Below, in pieces: positions 23,982 through 61,945 of a stretch of DNA of 64,000 bases (position 1 is its first letter; each line of letters starts with the position of its first letter). The DNA lies in IMG/VR virus record IMGVR_UViG_3300038300_000071, positions 32,001 to 96,000 of that record; one strand, given 5' to 3'. Origin of the DNA: a virus. Taxonomy: Duplodnaviria; Caudoviricetes. Position numbers and translations under genes: made by a program. The notes under the pieces are model-generated. The model did no database searches. It saw nothing but the letters and a program-made list of their open reading frames with translations, and was not told the origin of the DNA.

Positions 23982-24980
23982 ATGGGATATATCAAGAATC
24001 CTTCTGATAATGGTCAGTTTTGGAGAGAATCAGCGGCTAATGATAGCGCCTCTGTTTGGCATGGTTTTGATAGTAAAAATAACGGTAAAGACAAATTTTT
24101 CAAATCAGAAACATTGCCAAATAATCCAGATACCTTGAAAGAAACTGGAACTGTTTCTTCTAGTGGCGATAGGCTGTTGGCTGGTGTTTATGGAGATATT
24201 CCAAGTGTTTCTCTTTGGACTCCTGAGTCTATTATTACTGACGTTTGGTTTGATGCTTCTGATTCTAGCACCATTACTGAAATTGGGGGCCGAGTTAGTC
24301 AGTTGGATGACAAGAGTAATAATGCTGTACCTCAGAATATTGCTCAAGGGGTTGGATCGGAGCAGCCACAGACAGGAGTTGACACTTTAAATGGTTTGAA
24401 TGTGCTTACATTCGATGAGGCTTTCGATGAGGGTTTACAAAAGAATGGATGGGATAACATCGGTAAAGCGGGTAGTTTTTCTGTCTTTACTGTTGGGAAG
24501 ATGACGTCGAGTACAAATGGAAGCTTCCTAAACCTTCAAGATGATATGCATACTTACAGAAATAGATTTGATCCATATGGAAAGAGAACGTCGAGCAGTG
24601 TTCCAAAGTCCGTCAGTTATACAGAGCCAAGCTCGGCATACATTCTTAACGGAAATGCAAGATATGATGTGAGTCACACACTTCCTGACAGTTATTTCAA
24701 CGTTTTCATAAATGGTACACAAGAGGGTGTTAATGCCTTCTTCGACAATCCATTGCCAGAGAATGCCCCCAGTCCAAGGCTTGCAATGATGACTGCCAAC
24801 AATCCTGCCATTACAAATAGTGGAATAGTTGCAGAAGTTATAATCACCGAGGATATTGATGAAGTGTCTAGACAGAGAGTGGAAGGCTATTTGGCTTGGA
24901 AGTGGGGATTGGTAGACAGTCTTCCATCTAATCACCCTTATAAAAATAAACCTCCATACATTACTAGCGGAAACTTATAG
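23982..24980 (+). CDS. variable-core paralog 1 (putative LamG/ConA-like virion adhesin)
   Basis: Conserved N-term MGYIKNPSDNGQ...KSETLPN and C-term EGYLAWKWG...HPYK. Confidence 0.7.
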   Translation: MGYIKNPSDNGQFWRESAANDSASVWHGFDSKNNGKDKFFKSETLPNNPDTLKETGTVSSSGDRLLAGVYGDIPSVSLWTPESIITDVWFDASDSSTITEIGGRVSQLDDKSNNAVPQNIAQGVGSEQPQTGVDTLNGLNVLTFDEAFDEGLQKNGWDNIGKAGSFSVFTVGKMTSSTNGSFLNLQDDMHTYRNRFDPYGKRTSSSVPKSVSYTEPSSAYILNGNARYDVSHTLPDSYFNVFINGTQEGVNAFFDNPLPENAPSPRLAMMTANNPAITNSGIVAEVIITEDIDEVSRQRVEGYLAWKWGLVDSLPSNHPYKNKPPYITSGNL

Positions 24981-25043
24981 AGATTAGAGATATTTCTTTT
25001 ATAAAATTCATATTGGTAAATAAATGCTAATATGGAGATTCAA

Positions 25044-25985
25044 ATGGGATATATCAAGAATCCTTCTGATAATGGTCAGTTTTGGAGAGAATCAGCGGCT
25101 AATGACAGCGCTTCTGTTTGGCATGGTTTTGATAGTAAGAATAATGGTAAAGACAAATTTTTCAAATCAGAAACATTGCCAAATAATACAAAGGCTTTAA
25201 GTGAGTCTGGGTCTATTGCTTCTAGTGGTAATAGATTAATTGCTGGGGTTTATGGAGATCAAGCTTCTCTTCCTGCAAGTCTTTGGAATCCTTCTCTGAT
25301 GACATCTGTGGGTTGGTACGATGCTGATGATAGTTCTACAATTACAGAGTCTGCTGGAGCTATTAGCCAATGGGATGATAAGTCTGGGAATGACAATCAT
25401 GCTGTTCAGGGCGTTGGAAGCAAACAGCCAATTTACAATGCAAGTGATCCCGTGTTCGGTGGAAAGCCTTCCATATTGGGCGTTTTGGGTGATTATTTAG
25501 AAACTCCATCTATGTCAATAAATAGAATGTATTTAACTTTATATTTGGACGGTGTGGCAACGGCATGGCCAAATCATAATGCGGTAGTATCAGGGCCTTC
25601 TTTCCGTTTAACGGGTAGAGTTGGTGATGTTCACGTATGGGATGGCCCTAGAGACAATAAGAATTTTGATTTTAATGGAAGTACATTTAGGGATGGAAGT
25701 ACTGTTGATGTTAATTACGATCCAACTGGTTTGCCGATGGCGGGTGACATCTTTAGGATAAACGCTGAAAGCACAAAGACTCAAGTTTGGAGGTTGATGG
25801 GGAATACTCAAACATATACAACTTGGCATGGTGGTTTGGCAGAGGTGATATTTACAGACGGATCAGAGGATTTCAACACACAGCAAAAAATAGAAGGTTA
25901 CCTTGCTTGGAAGTGGGGATTTGTGGACAAGTTTCCAGCTGAGCATCCTTACAAGTCAGCTCCTCCATATATAGATGCTTATTAA
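25044..25985 (+). CDS. variable-core paralog 2
   Basis: Same termini; true start is MGYIK at 25044. Confidence 0.7.
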   Translation: MGYIKNPSDNGQFWRESAANDSASVWHGFDSKNNGKDKFFKSETLPNNTKALSESGSIASSGNRLIAGVYGDQASLPASLWNPSLMTSVGWYDADDSSTITESAGAISQWDDKSGNDNHAVQGVGSKQPIYNASDPVFGGKPSILGVLGDYLETPSMSINRMYLTLYLDGVATAWPNHNAVVSGPSFRLTGRVGDVHVWDGPRDNKNFDFNGSTFRDGSTVDVNYDPTGLPMAGDIFRINAESTKTQVWRLMGNTQTYTTWHGGLAEVIFTDGSEDFNTQQKIEGYLAWKWGFVDKFPAEHPYKSAPPYIDAY

Positions 25986-26054
25986 GATCATTTAAAAATT
26001 ATATTTCTTTTATAAAATTCATGTTAGTAAATAAATGCTAATATGGAGATTTAA

Positions 26055-26996
26055 ATGGGATATATCAAGAATCCTTCTGACAATGGTCAGTCTTGGAGAG
26101 AATCAGCCGCTGATAATTCGGCTATCCGTTGGCATGGTTTCGATAGTAAGAATAATGGTAAAGACAAATTTTTCAAATCAGAAACATTACCAAATGATCC
26201 AGACGCACTTGTTGCTGCTGGAGTCAATGCTTCTAGCGGTGATAGACTATTGGCTGGTGTTTATGGAGATATTCCAAGTGTTAATCTTTGGACTCCTGCT
26301 GGAGTCGTTACAGAACTTTGGCTTGATGCCACCGATGCTTCAACTATTACAGAATTATCTGGATCTGTGAGTCAGTGGGATGATAAGAGTGGTAGCGGTA
26401 ACGACTTCCCTCAGGGAAATGCATCCAGACAACCTATAACGGGAGTAAGAACTCTCAATGGCCTAAATGTTCTCGATTTCGATGGTGGTGATAGCATGCA
26501 AAGAGGGAGTTTGGCGAATGTGGCGAATGACTTCATTATGGTAGGAGTTTGGGATGTAGATTCGGGCGCAACACTGTTTTCAGAAACAGGTTCTCCTCAG
26601 GCTTGGAATGCAACAACTGCTGGTCTCACTACGCAATTGGATGGCACTATGCTTTACTCTGGAGGCACGATAAGCGGAGCAACTGTCGTTTCTTTTGATA
26701 TGAATCCTACGGGCCTTAATGCAGAGGCTTTTGTAAACGGAGAAAGTCAGGCAATACTTGCTCTGACGCAAAGCCTTGGAAATAGTACTGCCCGTATAGC
26801 TGCGAACTTTGTTGGCGGTTCTAATGTAGTTGGAGGAATGGGTGAAATGGTTATCTCCGATGACCGATCAGTAGAAACTCGTCAAAAGATCGAAGGATAC
26901 TTGGCTTGGAAGTGGGGTACGGAATCTGATCTTCCAGTTGGACATCCGTATAAGAACAAACCTCCATATATCACTAGTGGAAGTTTATTAGTTTAA
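26055..26996 (+). CDS. variable-core paralog 3
   Basis: Same conserved termini. Confidence 0.7.
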   Translation: MGYIKNPSDNGQSWRESAADNSAIRWHGFDSKNNGKDKFFKSETLPNDPDALVAAGVNASSGDRLLAGVYGDIPSVNLWTPAGVVTELWLDATDASTITELSGSVSQWDDKSGSGNDFPQGNASRQPITGVRTLNGLNVLDFDGGDSMQRGSLANVANDFIMVGVWDVDSGATLFSETGSPQAWNATTAGLTTQLDGTMLYSGGTISGATVVSFDMNPTGLNAEAFVNGESQAILALTQSLGNSTARIAANFVGGSNVVGGMGEMVISDDRSVETRQKIEGYLAWKWGTESDLPVGHPYKNKPPYITSGSLLV

Positions 26997-27054
26997 AAGG
27001 ATATTTCTTTTATAAAATTCATGTTGGTAAATAAGTGCTAATATGGAGATTTAA

Positions 27055-27996
27055 ATGGGATATATCAAGAATCCTTCTGACAACGGACAGTTTTGGAGAG
27101 AATCAGCGGCCAATGATAGTGCTTCTGTTTGGCACGGTTTTGATAGTAAAAATAATGGTAAAGATAAATTTTTCAAATCAGAAACATTGCCAAATGATCC
27201 AAAATCTTTAATTGCATCTGGAGCTATTGCTTCTAGTGGCGATAGATTTTTAGCTGGTGTTTATGGTGATCTTCCAAAAGTTTCTCTTTGGACTCCTGCA
27301 AAAATAGCCACATCTCTTTGGCTGGATGCCTCTGATCCTGCTACAATAACTGAGTCGGTAGGATCGGTCAGTCAGTGGGATGATAAGTCTGGAAATGGTA
27401 ACAATGTAATACAAGCCTCAGGAGTCAATCAGCCAGAAACTGGAGTAAGAGATATTAATGGATTAAACGTTCTTGATTTTGATGGCTCGGACAGCATGAC
27501 AAGAGGGGCTTTGGCGAGCAGATCTGATGATTTCATTGTGGTTGGCGTTTGGTATGTGGATTTTGTTATTTCAAGTCGCAGGAAGAATACGATGTTCGCA
27601 CAATCTGGGATATCTCAAGATTGGAATATGACAACCTCCGATATAGTCTTGCAGAGTGATGGATCTGATGCTTATTCTGGAGGCGTTTTGGCTGGTGTTA
27701 GTAGTATTATTTCTTATGATGTTAATTTTTCTGGATTGAATACTGAGGCTTTTATTAATGGTTCCAGTGAAGCGAATGTTGTGATGTCTCAGTCAGTAGG
27801 AAATTCCACAACAAATATTGGCATAGGGTTTACCGCTTCGAATTTCAATTTTTTCGGAGGTATGGGAGAGATTATTATCTCTAACGATAGATCTGTATCA
27901 ACTCGTCAAAAAATAGAAGGCTATCTTGCTTGGAAGTGGGATCAAGTTTCCAAGCTTCCTGCTGATCATCCTTATAAGAATGTACCACCCTGTTGA
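27055..27996 (+). CDS. variable-core paralog 4
   Basis: Same conserved termini. Confidence 0.7.
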   Translation: MGYIKNPSDNGQFWRESAANDSASVWHGFDSKNNGKDKFFKSETLPNDPKSLIASGAIASSGDRFLAGVYGDLPKVSLWTPAKIATSLWLDASDPATITESVGSVSQWDDKSGNGNNVIQASGVNQPETGVRDINGLNVLDFDGSDSMTRGALASRSDDFIVVGVWYVDFVISSRRKNTMFAQSGISQDWNMTTSDIVLQSDGSDAYSGGVLAGVSSIISYDVNFSGLNTEAFINGSSEANVVMSQSVGNSTTNIGIGFTASNFNFFGGMGEIIISNDRSVSTRQKIEGYLAWKWDQVSKLPADHPYKNVPPC

Positions 27997-28041
27997 TGGT
28001 GGTTGACTGAATCTTTATAAATACTAACATGGAGTTTTTAA

Positions 28042-28986
28042 ATGGGATATATCAAGAATCCTTCTGACAATGGTCAGTCTTGGAGAGAATCAGCGGCCAA
28101 TGATAGCGCTTCTATCTGGCATGGTTTCGATAGTAAGAATAATGGTAAAGACAAATTCTTTAAATCAGAAACATTGCCCAATGGTACAAAGGCTTTAAGT
28201 GAGTCTGGGTCTATTGCTTCTAGTGGTAATAGATTATTAGCTGGTGTTTATGGTAATCAATCTTCACTTCCTGCAAGCCTTTGGACTCCTAACAATATAA
28301 CTACATCAGCTTGGTTTGATGCTTCTGATGCGTCAACTATCACAGAGTCTGCCAATAAAGTTTCTCAATGGGATGATAAAAGTGGAAATAGCAAACACGC
28401 TGTGCAAGCAACTGGATCTCAACAACCGACCTATAAGCCTACCGATGCTAATATGAATGGGATGGGTAGTATCGGAGTTACAAGTAATACTGGAGCGAAA
28501 GGATTAGAAGTACCATCATTCGGAGCGAAGATTTGCTATACAGTCATTAGAAATGACAACGCCAACTTCTCATCATTCGATGTGCTGCTTGCAGGTGCGC
28601 TTGATAGATACCTTGTTCGTGGTAGTTCAGGAACTCCAGACTTCTATACTATCGGAACTCTTGAGTTCAATGATTTTACATATAAGAATGGTTCCACGGT
28701 AAGCACGGCCTTAAACGTACTTCCAATGCCGACAGCAACGATTTTCAAATTTGAAAGTGCCGCAATAAGAGAGCAGACATGGAGTTTCGGGTTTGGTAAT
28801 CAATGGGCTGGCAATAATAGAACATGGGATGGTGCTTATTCAGAGTTTATATTTACAGATGGAACTGAGGACTTATCTACACAGCAAAAGATCGAAGGAT
28901 ACCTAGCTTGGAAATGGGGAACAGAAGCTTCATTGCCTGTTAGTCATCCTTACAAGTCAGCTCCTCCATATATAGATGCTTATTAA
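28042..28986 (+). CDS. variable-core paralog 5
   Basis: Same conserved termini. Confidence 0.7.
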   Translation: MGYIKNPSDNGQSWRESAANDSASIWHGFDSKNNGKDKFFKSETLPNGTKALSESGSIASSGNRLLAGVYGNQSSLPASLWTPNNITTSAWFDASDASTITESANKVSQWDDKSGNSKHAVQATGSQQPTYKPTDANMNGMGSIGVTSNTGAKGLEVPSFGAKICYTVIRNDNANFSSFDVLLAGALDRYLVRGSSGTPDFYTIGTLEFNDFTYKNGSTVSTALNVLPMPTATIFKFESAAIREQTWSFGFGNQWAGNNRTWDGAYSEFIFTDGTEDLSTQQKIEGYLAWKWGTEASLPVSHPYKSAPPYIDAY

Positions 28987-29044
28987 TAGGATATTTCTTT
29001 TATAACTTTGTATTAGTAAATAAATGCTAACGTGGAGATTTTAA

Positions 29045-30076
29045 ATGGGATATATCAAGAATCCTTCTGACAATGGTCAGTTTTGGAGAGAATCAGCGGC
29101 TAATGATAGCGCTTCTATCTGGCATGGTTTCGATAGTAAGAATAATGGTAAAGACAAATTTTTCAAATCAGAGACATTGCCAAATGATCCAGCCGCACTT
29201 TCTGCCGCTGGAGTTAATGCTTCCAATGGAGATAGATTTTTAGCTGGTGTTTATGGAGATCAGTCTTCACTTCCTGCAAGCCTTTGGAATCCCGCTGAAA
29301 TATCCACTGAAGCTTGGTTCGATGCCAATGATGCTTCAACTATTACAGAATCAGCAGGAGCTGTAAGTCAGTGGGATGACAAGTCTGGCAATGTAAGAAA
29401 TCTTATTAACGCAACTGGCGTTCAACAGCCAATGACTGGAATTAGAACAATAGGCGGTTTAAACGCCCTAGATGCCGACGGGGTTACTCAACACCTATAT
29501 AACATTACAAACTTTGCATTTCCTGCCAGTGGAAACTTTATGGTGTTTGCGGTTGCAGTAGTAGACTCTTGCAGTGACAGAAATCAAGCTATATGGGCTT
29601 GGGATGATGATGTTGATATACAACTTGATAGTGCGCAAAACATTAATGAGTTCAGAGGTCGATTGTTTAACACTGACCCGACAAATCAAAACTTGCTATA
29701 CTCAACTAGCGACCCTGCACCATCTGGCTCAGTTATCGGACTAGACACGATGTGGACTACGGTCATGGACTTCACCGCAACGGAGAGTCACTTATATCGG
29801 AACGGACTTAATAGTGTGCTTAATCCAACAAAACTATATGCTAACAAGGTAACTAGTACTGGATTGCAACAGTTTACTGCGTTTCTAGGTGGATTCCCTA
29901 TTGCGTTTACTCATTTGCTTGATGGCGCAATAGGAGAGTTGCTTATGGTAGAAGGAACTGACACTATTACTCAACAAAAGATGGAAGGCTATCTTGCTTG
30001 GAAGTGGGGACTAGTCGCTAAACTCCCATCTGGTCATCCTTACAAGTCAGCTCCTCCATATATAGATGCTTATTAA
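29045..30076 (+). CDS. variable-core paralog 6
   Basis: Same conserved termini. Confidence 0.7.
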   Translation: MGYIKNPSDNGQFWRESAANDSASIWHGFDSKNNGKDKFFKSETLPNDPAALSAAGVNASNGDRFLAGVYGDQSSLPASLWNPAEISTEAWFDANDASTITESAGAVSQWDDKSGNVRNLINATGVQQPMTGIRTIGGLNALDADGVTQHLYNITNFAFPASGNFMVFAVAVVDSCSDRNQAIWAWDDDVDIQLDSAQNINEFRGRLFNTDPTNQNLLYSTSDPAPSGSVIGLDTMWTTVMDFTATESHLYRNGLNSVLNPTKLYANKVTSTGLQQFTAFLGGFPIAFTHLLDGAIGELLMVEGTDTITQQKMEGYLAWKWGLVAKLPSGHPYKSAPPYIDAY

Positions 30077-30225: not shown

Positions 30226-30277
30226 TAGTCATTAAGTCTAGATTGAGAGAATAAGTGATAAAAACTCTAAAAAGAAC

Positions 30278-30306
30278 TTGCAATTAACTATTTATCATGG
30301 TATATT
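30278..30306 (+). promoter_or_regulatory. sigma70-type promoter of tRNA operon 2
   Basis: TTGCAA-17 nt-TATATT. Confidence 0.8.
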
Positions 30307-30362
30307 GGTTACACAGAAGAAAAAAGTATTATTAAAAACAATTTAAAAGAAAGAGATTTAAA

Positions 30363-30440
30363 ATGAAATTTTCAAGCTACAATTTAAGCAATTGTTCGAG
30401 TTACTTATATAGTAATTCGTATGATCCTGTGCTTAAATGA
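30363..30440 (+). CDS. attenuator leader peptide 2 (MKFSSYNLSNCSSYLYSNSYDPVLK)
   Basis: 17 consecutive S/Y/N/L/C codons matching the downstream tRNAs. Confidence 0.85.
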   Translation: MKFSSYNLSNCSSYLYSNSYDPVLK

Positions 30441-30465
30441 GGTAGCAAATAATTTTAAATATTTG

Positions 30466-30506
30466 AATCCCCTTTTGAGCTAATCACTCAGAAGGGGATT
30501 TTTTTT
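30466..30506 (+). terminator. attenuator terminator 2
   Basis: aatccccttttgag-ctaatca-ctcagaaggggatt plus T run. Confidence 0.85.
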
Positions 30507-30519
30507 GTTTGGATTTTAT

Positions 30520-30609
30520 GGAGATAGTCCGGCATGGACGAGGACACTGTTTTGAAAGCAGCTGCGCACTAATACGGCGTCGAGGGTTCGATTCCCTCTG
30601 TCTCCGCCA
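30520..30609 (+). tRNA. tRNA-Ser(TGA)
   Basis: Long variable arm, G73, encoded CCA. Confidence 0.9.
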
Positions 30610-30641
30610 TTTTTAAAAGATAGGAAAGTAAGAAGTTAAAT

Positions 30642-30714
30642 GAACAATTGGCCGATTGGATATAGGCGCAGGATTGCAAACCCTGTTAGGCGAGTTCGAT
30701 TCTCGCATTGTTCT
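30642..30714 (+). tRNA. tRNA-Cys(GCA)
   Basis: tt-GCA-aa loop, U73. Confidence 0.9.
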
Positions 30715-30718
30715 CTAA

Positions 30719-30808
30719 GGAATGGTATAACGAAATTGGTATCGTCGCTGGTTGCTAACCAGTTCAGCAGGTTAAATGGCTGTGTGGGTTCGAGTCCCAC
30801 TCATTCCG
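30719..30808 (+). tRNA. tRNA-Ser(GCT)
   Basis: gctgg-tt-GCT-aa-ccagt, long variable arm, G73. Confidence 0.9.
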
Positions 30809-30828
30809 CTTTAATGAAGAAGTTTGAA

Positions 30829-30905
30829 GTGTATATTTGTCCAAGGTGGCGATATGTTACGCATTGTAGTTCAGGAACTAGGTTCGAGTCCTAGCTTATA
30901 TGCAC
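30829..30905 (+). ncRNA. tRNA-like RNA without a canonical anticodon loop
   Basis: gtgtatat/atatgcac stem and ctagGTTCGAGTCctag T arm; no 7-nt anticodon loop. Confidence 0.5.
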
Positions 30906-30913
30906 TTTTTTTT

Positions 30914-30986
30914 GATGGAGTAACCAAATTGGTATTGGTCTTGCCTGTTAAGCAAGTATGAGTGAGTTCGATTCTCATCTCCATCT
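30914..30986 (+). tRNA. tRNA-Asn(GTT)
   Basis: cttgc-ct-GTT-aa-gcaag; atypical U73. Confidence 0.8.
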
Positions 30987-30990
30987 TTTT

Positions 30991-31062
30991 AGGCGTGTAT
31001 CTCAATGGTAGAGACTTCGGTTGTTACCCGAAAGGTTGCTGGTTCGAGTCCAGCCGTGCCTG
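30991..31062 (+). tRNA. tRNA-Asn(GTT)
   Basis: ttcgg-tt-GTT-ac-ccgaa, G73. Confidence 0.85.
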
Positions 31063-31078
31063 TTGTTAGTAAGAATAA

Positions 31079-31160
31079 GCCGCTGTGGGGGAATTGGCAT
31101 ACCCGACGAGTTTAAGCCTCGTTGCCTTTGTGCATGAGAGTTCGAATCTCTCCAGCGGTA
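31079..31160 (+). tRNA. tRNA-Leu(TAA)
   Basis: acgag-tt-TAA-gc-ctcgt, variable arm, A73. Confidence 0.9.
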
Positions 31161-31167
31161 TTAACAT

Positions 31168-31241
31168 AGCTCTGTAGCCGAATTGGCATAGGCGGCAGTC
31201 TCAAAAACTGTAATTTACAGGTTCGAGTCCTGTCAGAGCTA
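31168..31241 (+). tRNA. tRNA-Leu(CAA), short variable loop
   Basis: gcagt-ct-CAA-aa-actgt, A73. Confidence 0.85.
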
Positions 31242-31245
31242 CTAT

Positions 31246-31320
31246 GTATTCATAGCTTAATGGTAAAGCGCAGTAGCAAATTGTATGAGCAAGATGTTGG
31301 TTCGATTCCAGCTGAATACG
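31246..31320 (+). ncRNA. tRNA-like RNA with aberrant anticodon arm
   Basis: Perfect acceptor, D and T arms; anticodon arm closes only a 5-nt loop. Confidence 0.55.
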
Positions 31321-31339
31321 TTAATGGAAATAAATATAA

Positions 31340-31421
31340 GTCGTCGTATATGTCTAAGGAGGACATCCAGTCTGTAAAACTGGCGCTTTGAGCTCGGTGG
31401 GATCGTTACCCACAGGCGACA
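31340..31421 (+). tRNA. tRNA-Tyr(GTA)
   Basis: ccagt-ct-GTA-aa-actgg, variable arm. Confidence 0.85.
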
Positions 31422-31425
31422 TTTT

Positions 31426-31470
31426 AAAAAAACTCTTTTAGTCTGATATAATAGGCTGAAAGAGTTTTTT
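31426..31470 (+). terminator. terminator ending tRNA operon 2
   Basis: aaaaaactcttttagtct...aggctgaaagagtttttt. Confidence 0.75.
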
Positions 31471-31705
31471 ATGGATTACAGACATGAGCGAAGGAACGGG
31501 AGCGTGTAATGGAAAATATACTTAAAGGGTTGCATGAGAAAGATCCTGCAAACAGGGTTGAATTTTCTTGTTTGAATAAGAATAAAGTTTTATGTTGGAT
31601 ATGCTATAAGGACGGCAAGAGGATTTTATCTGGATGCGAATCGGGAAAGAATCACAAAGAGGCCTTGGAAAATACAATGAATAACTTAAAAGAATAAGGA
31701 TTGTT

Positions 31706-32138: not shown

Positions 32139-33038
32139 ATGAACATTTTGATAAGTTATGCATTTATAAGAAGAAGTAAAGCATTGTTCAACTATGCATT
32201 GGCAATTTCTAAACATTGTAATGTATTGATCGATAGTGGCGCATTCAGTGCCTTTAAGTCTGGAGAAGTAATAACGTTAAAGGAATATAATAATTTCTGT
32301 AAGAAGTATGGAAAAAACTTTACAGGATATATTCAGCTTGATGTTATTGGAGATAAAGTACAGACTGAAATAAATTACCAAAAAAGCTTAGACGAGGGAT
32401 TGACTCCAATTCCCGTTCTTCAGGTTGATGAGGATGTAGAGAAGTCTATAAAGTTAAAAGAGACAACTGATTACATTTGCATATCAGGCCCAGCCGTAAG
32501 AGGAATTTCGAAAGAGTGGGTTTCTGAGAGGATCAGACAAGTTTATGATTTAACTGGATTGAAGATGCATGCTCTTGGCTTAGGCCCAACTGATGATATA
32601 GGAGATATACCTTTGTATTCTTGCGATAGCTCTGGATATACTATTCCGGGTATGAACTATCTTATTTCGCTGTTCAATGGAAAGAATTCGCTGCTTCATG
32701 AGCTTGATGATATGAAGTCTCTAGTGTTTGCTTCTAAGTGCGAAACAAAGGCTTTAAAAAATGGAAACAACAGTTTGTCTTACTTCTCTGGATTTTATTC
32801 TTATCTTCTGTATCAGCATTATATAAAAGAGAGTTTTGATAAGAACTATTATTTTGCAATTGCAAATAGTGACAATCTGAGAAGGCTTGCTTATATTTGT
32901 AGTACGAGTACTGTTGATAAACCAGATTATATGGGATATTATCATACGTTTAGAAATTACCGCATTAGCAATAGTAAAAAGCATATGATGACTGCTGTCC
33001 TTAAATATGGAAGTATGTTTAAATATTCAAACTTTTAG
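32139..33038 (+). CDS. TGT-fold (DpdA/queuine transglycosylase-like) protein
   Basis: IDSGAFS, QLDVIGD, PIPV, MHALG, SCDSS motifs. Confidence 0.7.
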   Translation: MNILISYAFIRRSKALFNYALAISKHCNVLIDSGAFSAFKSGEVITLKEYNNFCKKYGKNFTGYIQLDVIGDKVQTEINYQKSLDEGLTPIPVLQVDEDVEKSIKLKETTDYICISGPAVRGISKEWVSERIRQVYDLTGLKMHALGLGPTDDIGDIPLYSCDSSGYTIPGMNYLISLFNGKNSLLHELDDMKSLVFASKCETKALKNGNNSLSYFSGFYSYLLYQHYIKESFDKNYYFAIANSDNLRRLAYICSTSTVDKPDYMGYYHTFRNYRISNSKKHMMTAVLKYGSMFKYSNF

Positions 33039-49059: not shown

Positions 49060-49169
49060 GCCGGAGTAGCTTAATTGGTTAGAGCATAAGTGAAGCGCAT
49101 CATCGGAGACTAGTTAATCCTTTGTTGCTAGTATCTTAAAGGTTGCAGGTTCAAGTCCTGCCTCCGGCA
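49060..49169 (+). ncRNA. tRNA-like RNA with roughly 40 nt insert replacing the anticodon loop
   Basis: Perfect acceptor, D and T arms; no 7-nt anticodon loop. Confidence 0.65.
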
Positions 49170-53859: not shown

Positions 53860-53946
53860 GGATATATAGCTCAGCGGCCAGAGCAGAAGGATTCTAACCC
53901 TTTGGTAGTCGAAAGGCAGGCGCAGGTTCGATTCCTGTTATATCCT
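53860..53946 (+). tRNA. tRNA with ATTCTAAC loop: possible amber suppressor (CTA) or 8-nt-loop tRNA, long variable arm
   Basis: ggatata/tatatcc acceptor, D and T arms; gaagg-attctaac-ccttt. Confidence 0.6.

Positions 53947-60024: not shown

Positions 60025-61945
<1,921 letters not shown>

What the first reader, a model, noticed from the sequence alone, without database searches (positions are those of the whole stretch)
30363..30506. Leader 2: 17 consecutive Ser/Tyr/Asn/Leu/Cys codons ahead of the Ser/Cys/Asn/Leu/Tyr tRNAs
Codons 4-20 (SSYNLSNCSSYLYSNSY) are all read by operon 2 tRNAs. Ser codons are only TCA/TCG and AGC/AGT, matching Ser(TGA) and Ser(GCT); both sensing Leu codons are TTA, matching Leu(TAA). 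The candidate anti-terminator GCTTAAATGAGG (30431-30442) spans the stop codon and pairs at 10 of 12 positions (including G:U) with CCCCTTTTGAGC (30469-30480). It is the weakest of the four anti-terminators.
Basis: seen in the sequence. Interest (0 to 1): 0.85.

Follow-up and report, generated by a model that had tools for sequence, protein, structure and literature searches.

The report
Leader-peptide attenuator gating phage tRNAs
A 202-kb uncultured phage places a 25-codon test gene, written almost entirely in the codons read by the Ser, Cys, Asn, Leu and Tyr tRNA genes behind it, plus a switchable transcription stop in front of that tRNA block, so it probably makes these tRNAs only when ribosomes read those codons slowly; I found no published case of this control for tRNA genes.

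Summary
The ORF at 30363-30440 has 17 consecutive codons (4-20), all readable by tRNAs of the operon that starts 14 nt after a strong terminator (30465-30501).

- **Chance:** about 1e-12 for the run. Among 1409 short ORFs in the genome the next longest run is 8.
- **Replicates:** three other units in the window are built the same way. The 4x4 leader-by-cluster codon table is sharply diagonal, and all 14 isoacceptor choices fit the leader's own cluster.
- **Tyr tRNA:** the default finders miss it. It is real, at 31340-31421, with 14 of 24 cloverleaf pairs covarying.
- **Antiterminator:** Together with a spacer stem it forms a -12.3 kcal/mol hairpin (z -3.8).
- **Switch:** that hairpin is predicted only when a ribosome sits at codons 4-14. 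It is absent with no ribosome and with a ribosome near the stop codon.
- **Relatives:** a 90-95% relative keeps the 190-nt leader transcript identical. Two distant relatives (terminase 51-54%) have a homologous leader that gains Val and Phe codons, and their arrays contain Val and Phe tRNAs.

I read it as a classical ribosome-mediated attenuator applied to tRNA genes. This scan has reported the same system before, for leaders 1 and 4 of this genome and in other phage genomes. Six literature searches found no publication. No experiment exists.

The parts
30278..30306 (+). Sigma-70-type promoter, TTGCAA-17-TATATT with TG upstream of the -10
   Evidence: The -35 element is kept in relative L001 while the spacer changes. 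The same promoter type stands before the other three leaders and before the leaders of G001 and G003.
30353..30356 (+). Weak SD-like GAGA, 6 nt before the ATG
   Evidence: Read from the sequence. Phage genes carry AAGGAG-type SD at -11 to -8, and GAGA is enriched 2.2-fold there.
30363..30440 (+). Leader ORF, 25 codons plus TGA
   Evidence: It is the only ORF of 12-45 codons that ends near this terminator.
30372..30422 (+). Sensing run, codons 4-20, 17 of 17 read by operon tRNAs
30376..30446 (+). Hairpin A (segments 1:2). It sequesters the 5' arm of the antiterminator.
   Evidence: -24.9 kcal/mol, z -5.4, 0 of 200 shuffles as good.
30431..30480 (+). Antiterminator B (segments 2:3): outer helix 30431-30437 with 30474-30480, plus an inner spacer stem. 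It spans the stop codon.
   Evidence: -12.3 kcal/mol, z -3.8. Probability of the 7-bp outer helix: 0.00 with no ribosome, 0.74 at codon 4 and 0.94-0.97 at codons 5-14. Scored over all 11 pairs of the composite hairpin, 0.78-0.94 at codons 4-14 and at most 0.13 from codon 15 to the stop.
30465..30509 (+). Intrinsic terminator T (segments 3:4): 15-bp stem, 7-nt loop, run of 8 T
   Evidence: -21.8 kcal/mol, z -6.4.
30520..30609 (+). tRNA-Ser(TGA)
30642..30715 (+). tRNA-Cys(GCA)
30719..30809 (+). tRNA-Ser(GCT)
30914..31063 (+). Two tRNA-Asn(GTT), at 30914-30986 and 30990-31063
31079..31160 (+). tRNA-Leu(TAA)
31168..31242 (+). tRNA with CAA anticodon (Leu by anticodon), only 75 nt long
31340..31421 (+). 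Atypical tRNA-Tyr(GUA): 5-bp D stem, T loop ATCGTTA, no encoded CCA
   Evidence: It folds as a cloverleaf. ARAGORN calls it only at -ps80. It is identical in L001.
31427..31470 (+). Terminator at the end of the operon
   Evidence: -21.5 kcal/mol, z -6.9.

Best explanation
This is a ribosome-mediated (leader-peptide) transcription attenuator that controls a phage tRNA operon.

Proposed steps (inferred, not shown):
1. Transcription starts at the promoter at 30278-30306, and a ribosome translates the 25-codon leader.
2. If aminoacyl-tRNAs for the Ser, Tyr, Asn, Leu and Cys codons of the run are scarce, the ribosome stalls at codons 4 to about 15.
3. The stalled ribosome covers the 5' arm of hairpin A and frees 30431-30446. 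That stretch pairs with the terminator's 5' arm to form antiterminator B.
4. RNA polymerase then reads through into Ser, Cys, Ser, Asn, Asn, Leu, Leu and Tyr tRNAs.
5. If decoding is fast, the ribosome reaches the end of the ORF and sits on B's 5' arm, which spans the stop codon. With no translation, hairpin A holds that arm. In both cases terminator T forms 14 nt before the first tRNA.

Because the products are the tRNAs that the leader tests, the unit is a negative-feedback supply control.

Shown in silico: the anatomy, the codon statistics, the mutually exclusive folds, the conservation and the co-variation with array content. Inferred: translation of the ORF, stalling, and regulated readthrough.
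For: 1. Codon match. 17 of 17 in the run and 17 of 24 overall, P = 8e-8. It is a unique outlier among 1409 short ORFs.
2. Specificity. Matches on the diagonal of the leader-by-cluster table are 14, 17, 16 and 15, against 0-5 off the diagonal. Isoacceptor choices for Leu, Gly and Ile are 14 of 14 for the leader's own cluster, joint probability 10^-4.45.
3. Three alternative hairpins A, B and T, each far more stable than shuffles.
4. B is predicted only with the A site at codons 4-14. The same position dependence appears in leaders 1, 3 and 4 and in G001 and G003.
5. In L001 the flanks are 90-95% identical, yet the leader has 0 changes in 190 nt from about the transcription start to the T run. 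The 67 nt upstream carry 12 changes. Leader 1 behaves the same way in L238.
6. G001 and G003 (terminase 51-54% identical) carry a 24-25 codon leader plus terminator before an array of Phe, Leu, Ser, Val, Leu, Ser, Asn, Cys, Tyr and Ser tRNAs. Their runs of 16-17 codons add Val and Phe, P = 2e-5 to 5e-5.
7. Negative control. The same scanner finds no such unit in the arrays of jumbo phages with 30-40% terminase identity.
Against: - There are no expression, ribosome or termination data, and the host is unknown.
- The SD is weak (GAGA).
- At equilibrium on the full transcript the terminator always wins, so B must act kinetically.
- The bare 12-nt pairing is not above chance.
- In states without stalling, the folding model also pairs the terminator's 5' arm with the AU-rich 5' UTR (P 0.5-0.75). 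I cannot evaluate this.
- Stalls at codons 15-20 give B only if a trailing ribosome is assumed.
- No nucleotide covariation is available for helices A, B and T of this unit. The only close relative is identical, and the distant ones are too diverged to align column by column.
Confidence: 0.8

Rival explanations
1. Same attenuator hardware, but the physiological signal is amino-acid supply (starvation for Ser, Tyr, Asn, Leu or Cys), as in biosynthetic operons, and not tRNA abundance.
For: Stalling reports the level of charged tRNA, which falls when either the amino acid or the tRNA is short. The sequence cannot separate the two.
Against: Making more tRNA does not relieve amino-acid starvation. 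The match is at isoacceptor level: 14 of 14 choices, TTA and not CTN, and TCA/TCG/AGY and not TCT/TCC. An amino-acid sensor does not need this.
Confidence: 0.12
2. The terminator is a constitutive, leaky terminator that only lowers tRNA output or ends upstream transcripts. The ORF is untranslated and the codon match is a coincidence.
For: There is no experimental evidence of translation, and the SD is weak.
Against: The product of the four binomial tails is about 1e-21. The table is diagonal. Leader content follows array content in G001 and G003. The whole leader, not only the terminator, is invariant in L001.
Confidence: 0.04
3. The ORF encodes a functional micropeptide, and its composition is selected for the peptide's own activity.
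For: Some attenuator leader peptides act in trans (peTrpL, PMC7298713).
Against: Four leaders with disjoint compositions each mirror their own tRNA set. Synonymous codon choice is also constrained.
Confidence: 0.03
4. The RNA senses tRNA directly, like a T-box, without translation.
For: T-boxes also couple tRNA status to a terminator-antiterminator choice.
Against: Rfam gives no T-box match or any other leader-family match at gathering score. The best sub-threshold hit is the PyrG leader at 28 bits against a cut-off of 65. The element is about 150 nt and would have to sense six or more different tRNAs.
Confidence: 0.01

Closest known systems
Multivalent leader-peptide attenuators of enterobacterial amino-acid operons (ilvGMEDA leader for Ile/Leu/Val; thr leader for Thr/Ile) and the single-amino-acid trpL, hisL, pheL and leuL
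   Same: Promoter, short translated ORF with clustered regulatory codons, 1:2, 2:3 and 3:4 alternative hairpins, and an intrinsic terminator before the structural genes. Several amino acids are sensed by one leader. (From my own knowledge of these systems; PMC3082878 and PMC4046918 describe pheL and hisL.)
   Different: The regulated genes are tRNAs, not enzymes. Five amino acids and eight tRNA genes (seven anticodons) are sensed. Codons are matched to isoacceptors. The product feeds back directly on the sensor. The element is phage-encoded. There is no sequence or Rfam relationship.
pheST attenuator (pheM leader) of E. coli
   Same: Leader-peptide attenuation that controls a component of the translation apparatus according to the level of charged tRNA (from my own knowledge).
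   Different: It controls an aminoacyl-tRNA synthetase, senses one amino acid, and is a cellular gene.
T-box riboswitches
   Same: tRNA status decides between a terminator and an antiterminator upstream of genes related to translation.
   Different: T-boxes bind one uncharged tRNA directly, need no ribosome, and carry conserved specifier and T-box motifs. None is found here.

Membership tests
Leader-peptide (ribosome-mediated) transcription attenuator | Promoter followed by a short ORF with a ribosome-binding site, upstream of the regulated genes | tested here: met
   Promoter at 30278-30306. ORF at 30363-30440 with GAGA 6 nt upstream. The SD is weak.
Leader-peptide (ribosome-mediated) transcription attenuator | Cluster of regulatory codons for the metabolite or tRNA being sensed | tested here: met
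   17 consecutive cognate codons, P about 1e-12 for the run. Specific to the unit's own operon.
Leader-peptide (ribosome-mediated) transcription attenuator | Intrinsic terminator between the leader ORF and the first regulated gene | tested here: met
   30465-30509, -21.8 kcal/mol, z -6.4. The first tRNA starts at 30520.
Leader-peptide (ribosome-mediated) transcription attenuator | An antiterminator that excludes the terminator and whose formation depends on ribosome position | tested here: met
   B at 30431-30480, -12.3 kcal/mol, z -3.8. Over the 11 pairs of the composite hairpin, P(B) is 0.00 with no ribosome, 0.78-0.94 at codons 4-14 and at most 0.13 from codon 15 to the stop. This is a thermodynamic model only.
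Leader-peptide (ribosome-mediated) transcription attenuator | Readthrough shown to depend on translation and on charged tRNA | not testable with these tools
No experiment exists.
T-box riboswitch | Match to the T-box covariance model (specifier loop, T-box sequence) | tested here: not met
   No match at gathering score or at E<=1 in 30250-31480.
Any Rfam leader or attenuator family | Covariance-model match at gathering score | tested here: not met
   Only tRNA matches reach threshold. PyrG leader scores 28 bits against 65.
tRNA (for the Tyr gene at 31340-31421) | Cloverleaf supported by covariation, GUA anticodon in a 7-nt loop | tested here: met
   98% of cells paired, 14 of 24 pairs compensatory, 0 of 500 shuffles as good. 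It is missed by the default ARAGORN and Rfam thresholds.

The most novel reading that the evidence does not exclude
The four units together form a phage-encoded, closed-loop tRNA supply system. The 20 amino acids are split over four operons, and each operon is switched on only when its own codons are decoded slowly. This would let the phage detect and repair shortages in the tRNA pool during infection. Such shortages include codon-usage mismatch with a new host and tRNA cleavage by host anticodon nucleases. The attenuators would then be sensors of a counter-defence and resupply circuit.
Probability: 0.35. Interest if true: 0.9.

Novelty: new variant of a known kind. Interest (0 to 1): 0.8.

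Why it matters
How phage tRNA genes are regulated is essentially undescribed. They are usually treated as constitutive codon-usage supplements or as decoys against tRNA-targeting defences. A leader-peptide attenuator in front of tRNA genes would be a new target class for one of the oldest known regulatory mechanisms. It would also be a direct autoregulatory loop, in which the product tRNA speeds up its own sensor.

It makes a question testable: do phages measure the state of the host translation apparatus? The leaders also predict which tRNA reads which codon, for example that the atypical Tyr tRNA is functional. The unit is compact, about 230 nt, and could serve as a portable reporter of decoding speed for chosen codons.

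Tried and rejected
- The phage collection holds no relative at DNA level, only tRNA-sized hits. GroEL, an ATPase and two other proteins did not place the phage near any cultured phage.
- A Tgt-like neighbour found no relative in IMG/VR. In the protein database it found only three short contigs. Of these, L001 carries the leader and L002 starts just after the operon.
- A paralogous upstream protein found no closer relative for leader 2. Its best hit, L238, covers leader 1 only.
- A leader-hairpin pattern found only G001 and G003 again.
- A 5'-UTR pattern scan of metagenome contigs returned 120 or more hits, apparently chance. None was followed by a leader and a tRNA array.
- MAFFT alignment of the three homologous leaders is not in codon register, so I ran no column-wise covariation test of A, B and T.
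- My first ORF coordinates were off by one and were corrected.
- The probabilities for hairpin A used mis-indexed pairs and are not used.
- TAG, TGA and TAA recoding was checked and rejected.

Full report
**What is there.** The window lies in a single 202,452-bp contig with 37% G+C. It encodes a terminase, a portal protein, a DNA polymerase and GroEL, so it is a large uncultured phage. All 29 tRNAs found by ARAGORN lie in the window, in four main blocks.

At the finding, the sequence shows these elements in order:
- a sigma-70-type promoter at 30278-30306;
- a weak SD-like GAGA;
- an ORF at 30363-30440 of 25 codons;
- a 24-nt spacer;
- a 15-bp terminator stem at 30465-30501, followed by eight T;
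- tRNA-Ser(TGA), 14 nt after the T run.

The operon continues with Cys(GCA), Ser(GCT), two Asn(GTT), Leu(TAA) and a 75-nt CAA tRNA. It ends at a second strong terminator at 31427-31470.

**The Tyr tRNA.** ARAGORN at default settings and Rfam both miss it.
- The stretch 31340-31421 folds as a cloverleaf with a GUA anticodon.
- ARAGORN calls it at a relaxed threshold.
- It is identical in relative L001.
- Its unusual T arm occurs in 24 IMG/VR loci. Four distinct sequences from five of those loci are clear homologues with GUA anticodons.
- On an alignment of five sequences, 98% of cells pair and 14 of 24 pairs show compensatory changes. No shuffle out of 500 and no slid register comes close.

The gene is therefore real, and the claim that all 17 codons are served by the operon holds.

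**Is the codon run more than chance?**
- The 12 codons read by the operon's tRNAs make up 19.7% of codons in the long ORFs of the genome.
- A run of 17 has probability about 1e-12. For 17 of 24 codons the binomial tail is 8e-8.
- Without the Tyr tRNA it is still 13 of 24, P = 2e-5.
- Among all 1409 ORFs of 20-35 codons in six frames, this ORF ranks first. No other has a run longer than 8, even when each is scored against its best cluster.

**Replicates inside the window.** The same layout stands before the three other blocks. A blind scanner for a terminator, a short ORF and a tRNA within 200 nt recovers exactly these four units.
- Codons of leader i readable by cluster j give 14, 17, 16 and 15 on the diagonal, against 0-5 elsewhere.
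- Leu, Gly and Ile have isoacceptors in different clusters. For these, all 14 codons in the sensing runs belong to the leader's own cluster, joint probability 10^-4.45 given the amino acid.

The signal is therefore at the level of the tRNA species, not of amino-acid composition.

**The switch.** Three mutually exclusive hairpins are each much more stable than dinucleotide shuffles.

| Hairpin | Coordinates | Energy (kcal/mol) | z |
|---|---|---|---|
| A | 30376-30446 | -24.9 | -5.4 |
| B | 30431-30480 | -12.3 | -3.8 |
| T | 30465-30501 | -21.8 | -6.4 |

- With the spacer stem it becomes a real hairpin. When only the upstream arm is shuffled, 10 of 500 do as well.
- I folded the nascent transcript up to the terminator loop while masking a 28-nt ribosome footprint at each A-site codon. 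Scored on the 7-bp outer helix, B has probability 0.00 with no ribosome, 0.03-0.04 at codons 2-3, 0.74 at codon 4 and 0.94-0.97 at codons 5-14. Scored over all 11 pairs of the composite hairpin, it is 0.78-0.94 at codons 4-14 and at most 0.13 from codon 15 to the stop.
- With a trailing ribosome on the start site, B persists through codon 19, at 0.85 falling to 0.26-0.50, and is 0.17 at codon 20.

The window in which a stall frees the antiterminator thus begins at the first sensing codon. Leaders 1, 3 and 4 show the same position dependence.

Caveats:
- On the full transcript the terminator wins at equilibrium. B must therefore act kinetically, as is accepted for the trp attenuator (my own knowledge).
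- The model also pairs the terminator's 5' arm with the AU-rich 5' UTR in states without stalling. I cannot judge this.

**Relatives.** Close relatives are rare.
- L001, a 4-kb JGI contig, is 90-95% identical in the flanks. It has 12 changes in the 67 nt upstream of the transcription start. It has none in the 190 nt from there to the T run, and it diverges again in the first tRNA. At 5% divergence the chance of 190 unchanged bases is about 6e-5.
- Leader 1 shows the same sharply bounded invariance in L238.
- Through the terminase (51-54% identity) I reached two IMG/VR contigs, G001 and G003.
- Each has one unit of the same design: promoter, an ORF of 24-25 codons, a 26-27 nt spacer and a terminator. 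It stands before an array of Phe, Leu, Ser, Val, Leu, Ser, Asn, Cys, Tyr and Ser tRNAs.
- Their sensing runs of 16 and 17 codons use Ser, Leu, Tyr, Asn and Cys, plus Val and Phe. These are the two amino acids whose tRNAs sit in other operons in the window phage and are absent from its leader 2 (P = 2e-5 to 5e-5).
- An inner hairpin sits at about the same codon positions in all three leaders. It differs by a G:C to A:U double change, and both changed codons stay inside the sensing set.
- Their antiterminators form with a ribosome at codons 2-17 (P 0.75-0.99) and less so from codon 19 on (0.24-0.65).
- As a negative control, arrays of seven jumbo phages with 30-40% terminase identity gave no codon-matched leader.
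- One unrelated IMG/VR contig (L094) gave another clear case: a run of ten Gln, Tyr and Pro codons, then a terminator, then Tyr, His, Pro and Gln tRNAs.

**Comparison with the known.**
- The hardware is that of classical leader-peptide attenuation. The nearest analogues are the multivalent ilv and thr leaders, and the pheST leader as a case that acts on the translation apparatus (my own knowledge; pheL and hisL in PMC3082878 and PMC4046918).
- It is not a T-box and matches no Rfam leader family.
- The new element is the target. The tRNA genes are matched to the leader at isoacceptor level, which closes a feedback loop.
- Six full-text searches found no description of such control. A survey of premature terminators does not mention tRNA genes.
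- This scan has already reported the same system for leaders 1 and 4 of this genome and in other phage genomes. Those are unchecked AI notes. I did not rely on them for evidence.

**Verdict.** My confidence that this is a functional attenuator of the tRNA operon is 0.8. What remains open is experimental proof, and whether the physiological trigger is tRNA shortage, which the isoacceptor matching favours, or amino-acid shortage.

Noticed in passing
window 31398-31415; IMG/VR loci L094-L117: The T arm GGTGGGATCGTTACCCAC has the loop ATCGTTA instead of the usual TTCGAAT, so positions 54 and 58 appear swapped. It recurs exactly in 24 IMG/VR contigs, in tRNAs with Phe, Asn, Ala, Met, Cys and Tyr anticodons. 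ARAGORN at default settings misses the Tyr-type members.
   Followed up: partly
L094:4907-5036 (IMGVR_UViG_3300038299_000184): An independent codon-matched leader in an unrelated phage contig. The 24-codon ORF has ten consecutive Gln, Tyr and Pro codons, followed by a terminator and then Tyr, His, Pro and Gln tRNAs.
   Followed up: partly
window 53860-53946: An 87-nt tRNA with a CTA anticodon, called 'Pyl' by ARAGORN. It would read TAG. The genome shows no sign of TAG recoding: TAG ends 41 of 214 long ORFs, and reading it as sense extends ORFs little.
   Followed up: partly
window 49060-49169: A 110-nt Rfam tRNA match with an insertion of about 38 nt in the anticodon region, possibly an intron. 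ARAGORN does not call it.
   Followed up: no
window 31246-31320 and 30829-30903: Two tRNA-like sequences inside operon 2. The first scores 47 bits in Rfam but has an aberrant 21-nt anticodon arm and is absent from L001. The second is called only at a relaxed threshold, with a CAT anticodon. They may be decaying tRNA genes.
   Followed up: partly
window 23982-30076: Six tandem paralogues of 313-343 aa, matching a PHROG 'virion structural protein', lie directly upstream of leader 2. In L001 the end of the first copy abuts the leader, so copy number varies between relatives.
   Followed up: partly
L001:572-1394: The relative carries an 823-bp insertion with a 240-aa ORF (no Pfam match) between a diverged tRNA-Ser(TGA) and tRNA-Cys. 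It is possibly a mobile endonuclease-type insertion in the array.
   Followed up: partly
window 31168-31242: The CAA-anticodon tRNA is only 75 nt and lacks the long variable arm expected of a bacterial-type tRNA-Leu, so its amino-acid identity is uncertain.
   Followed up: no
window 32139-33038 and 60332-61945: A gene resembling queuine tRNA-ribosyltransferase lies just after operon 2, and a GroEL homologue lies further on. The first suggests that the phage also modifies tRNAs.
   Followed up: no
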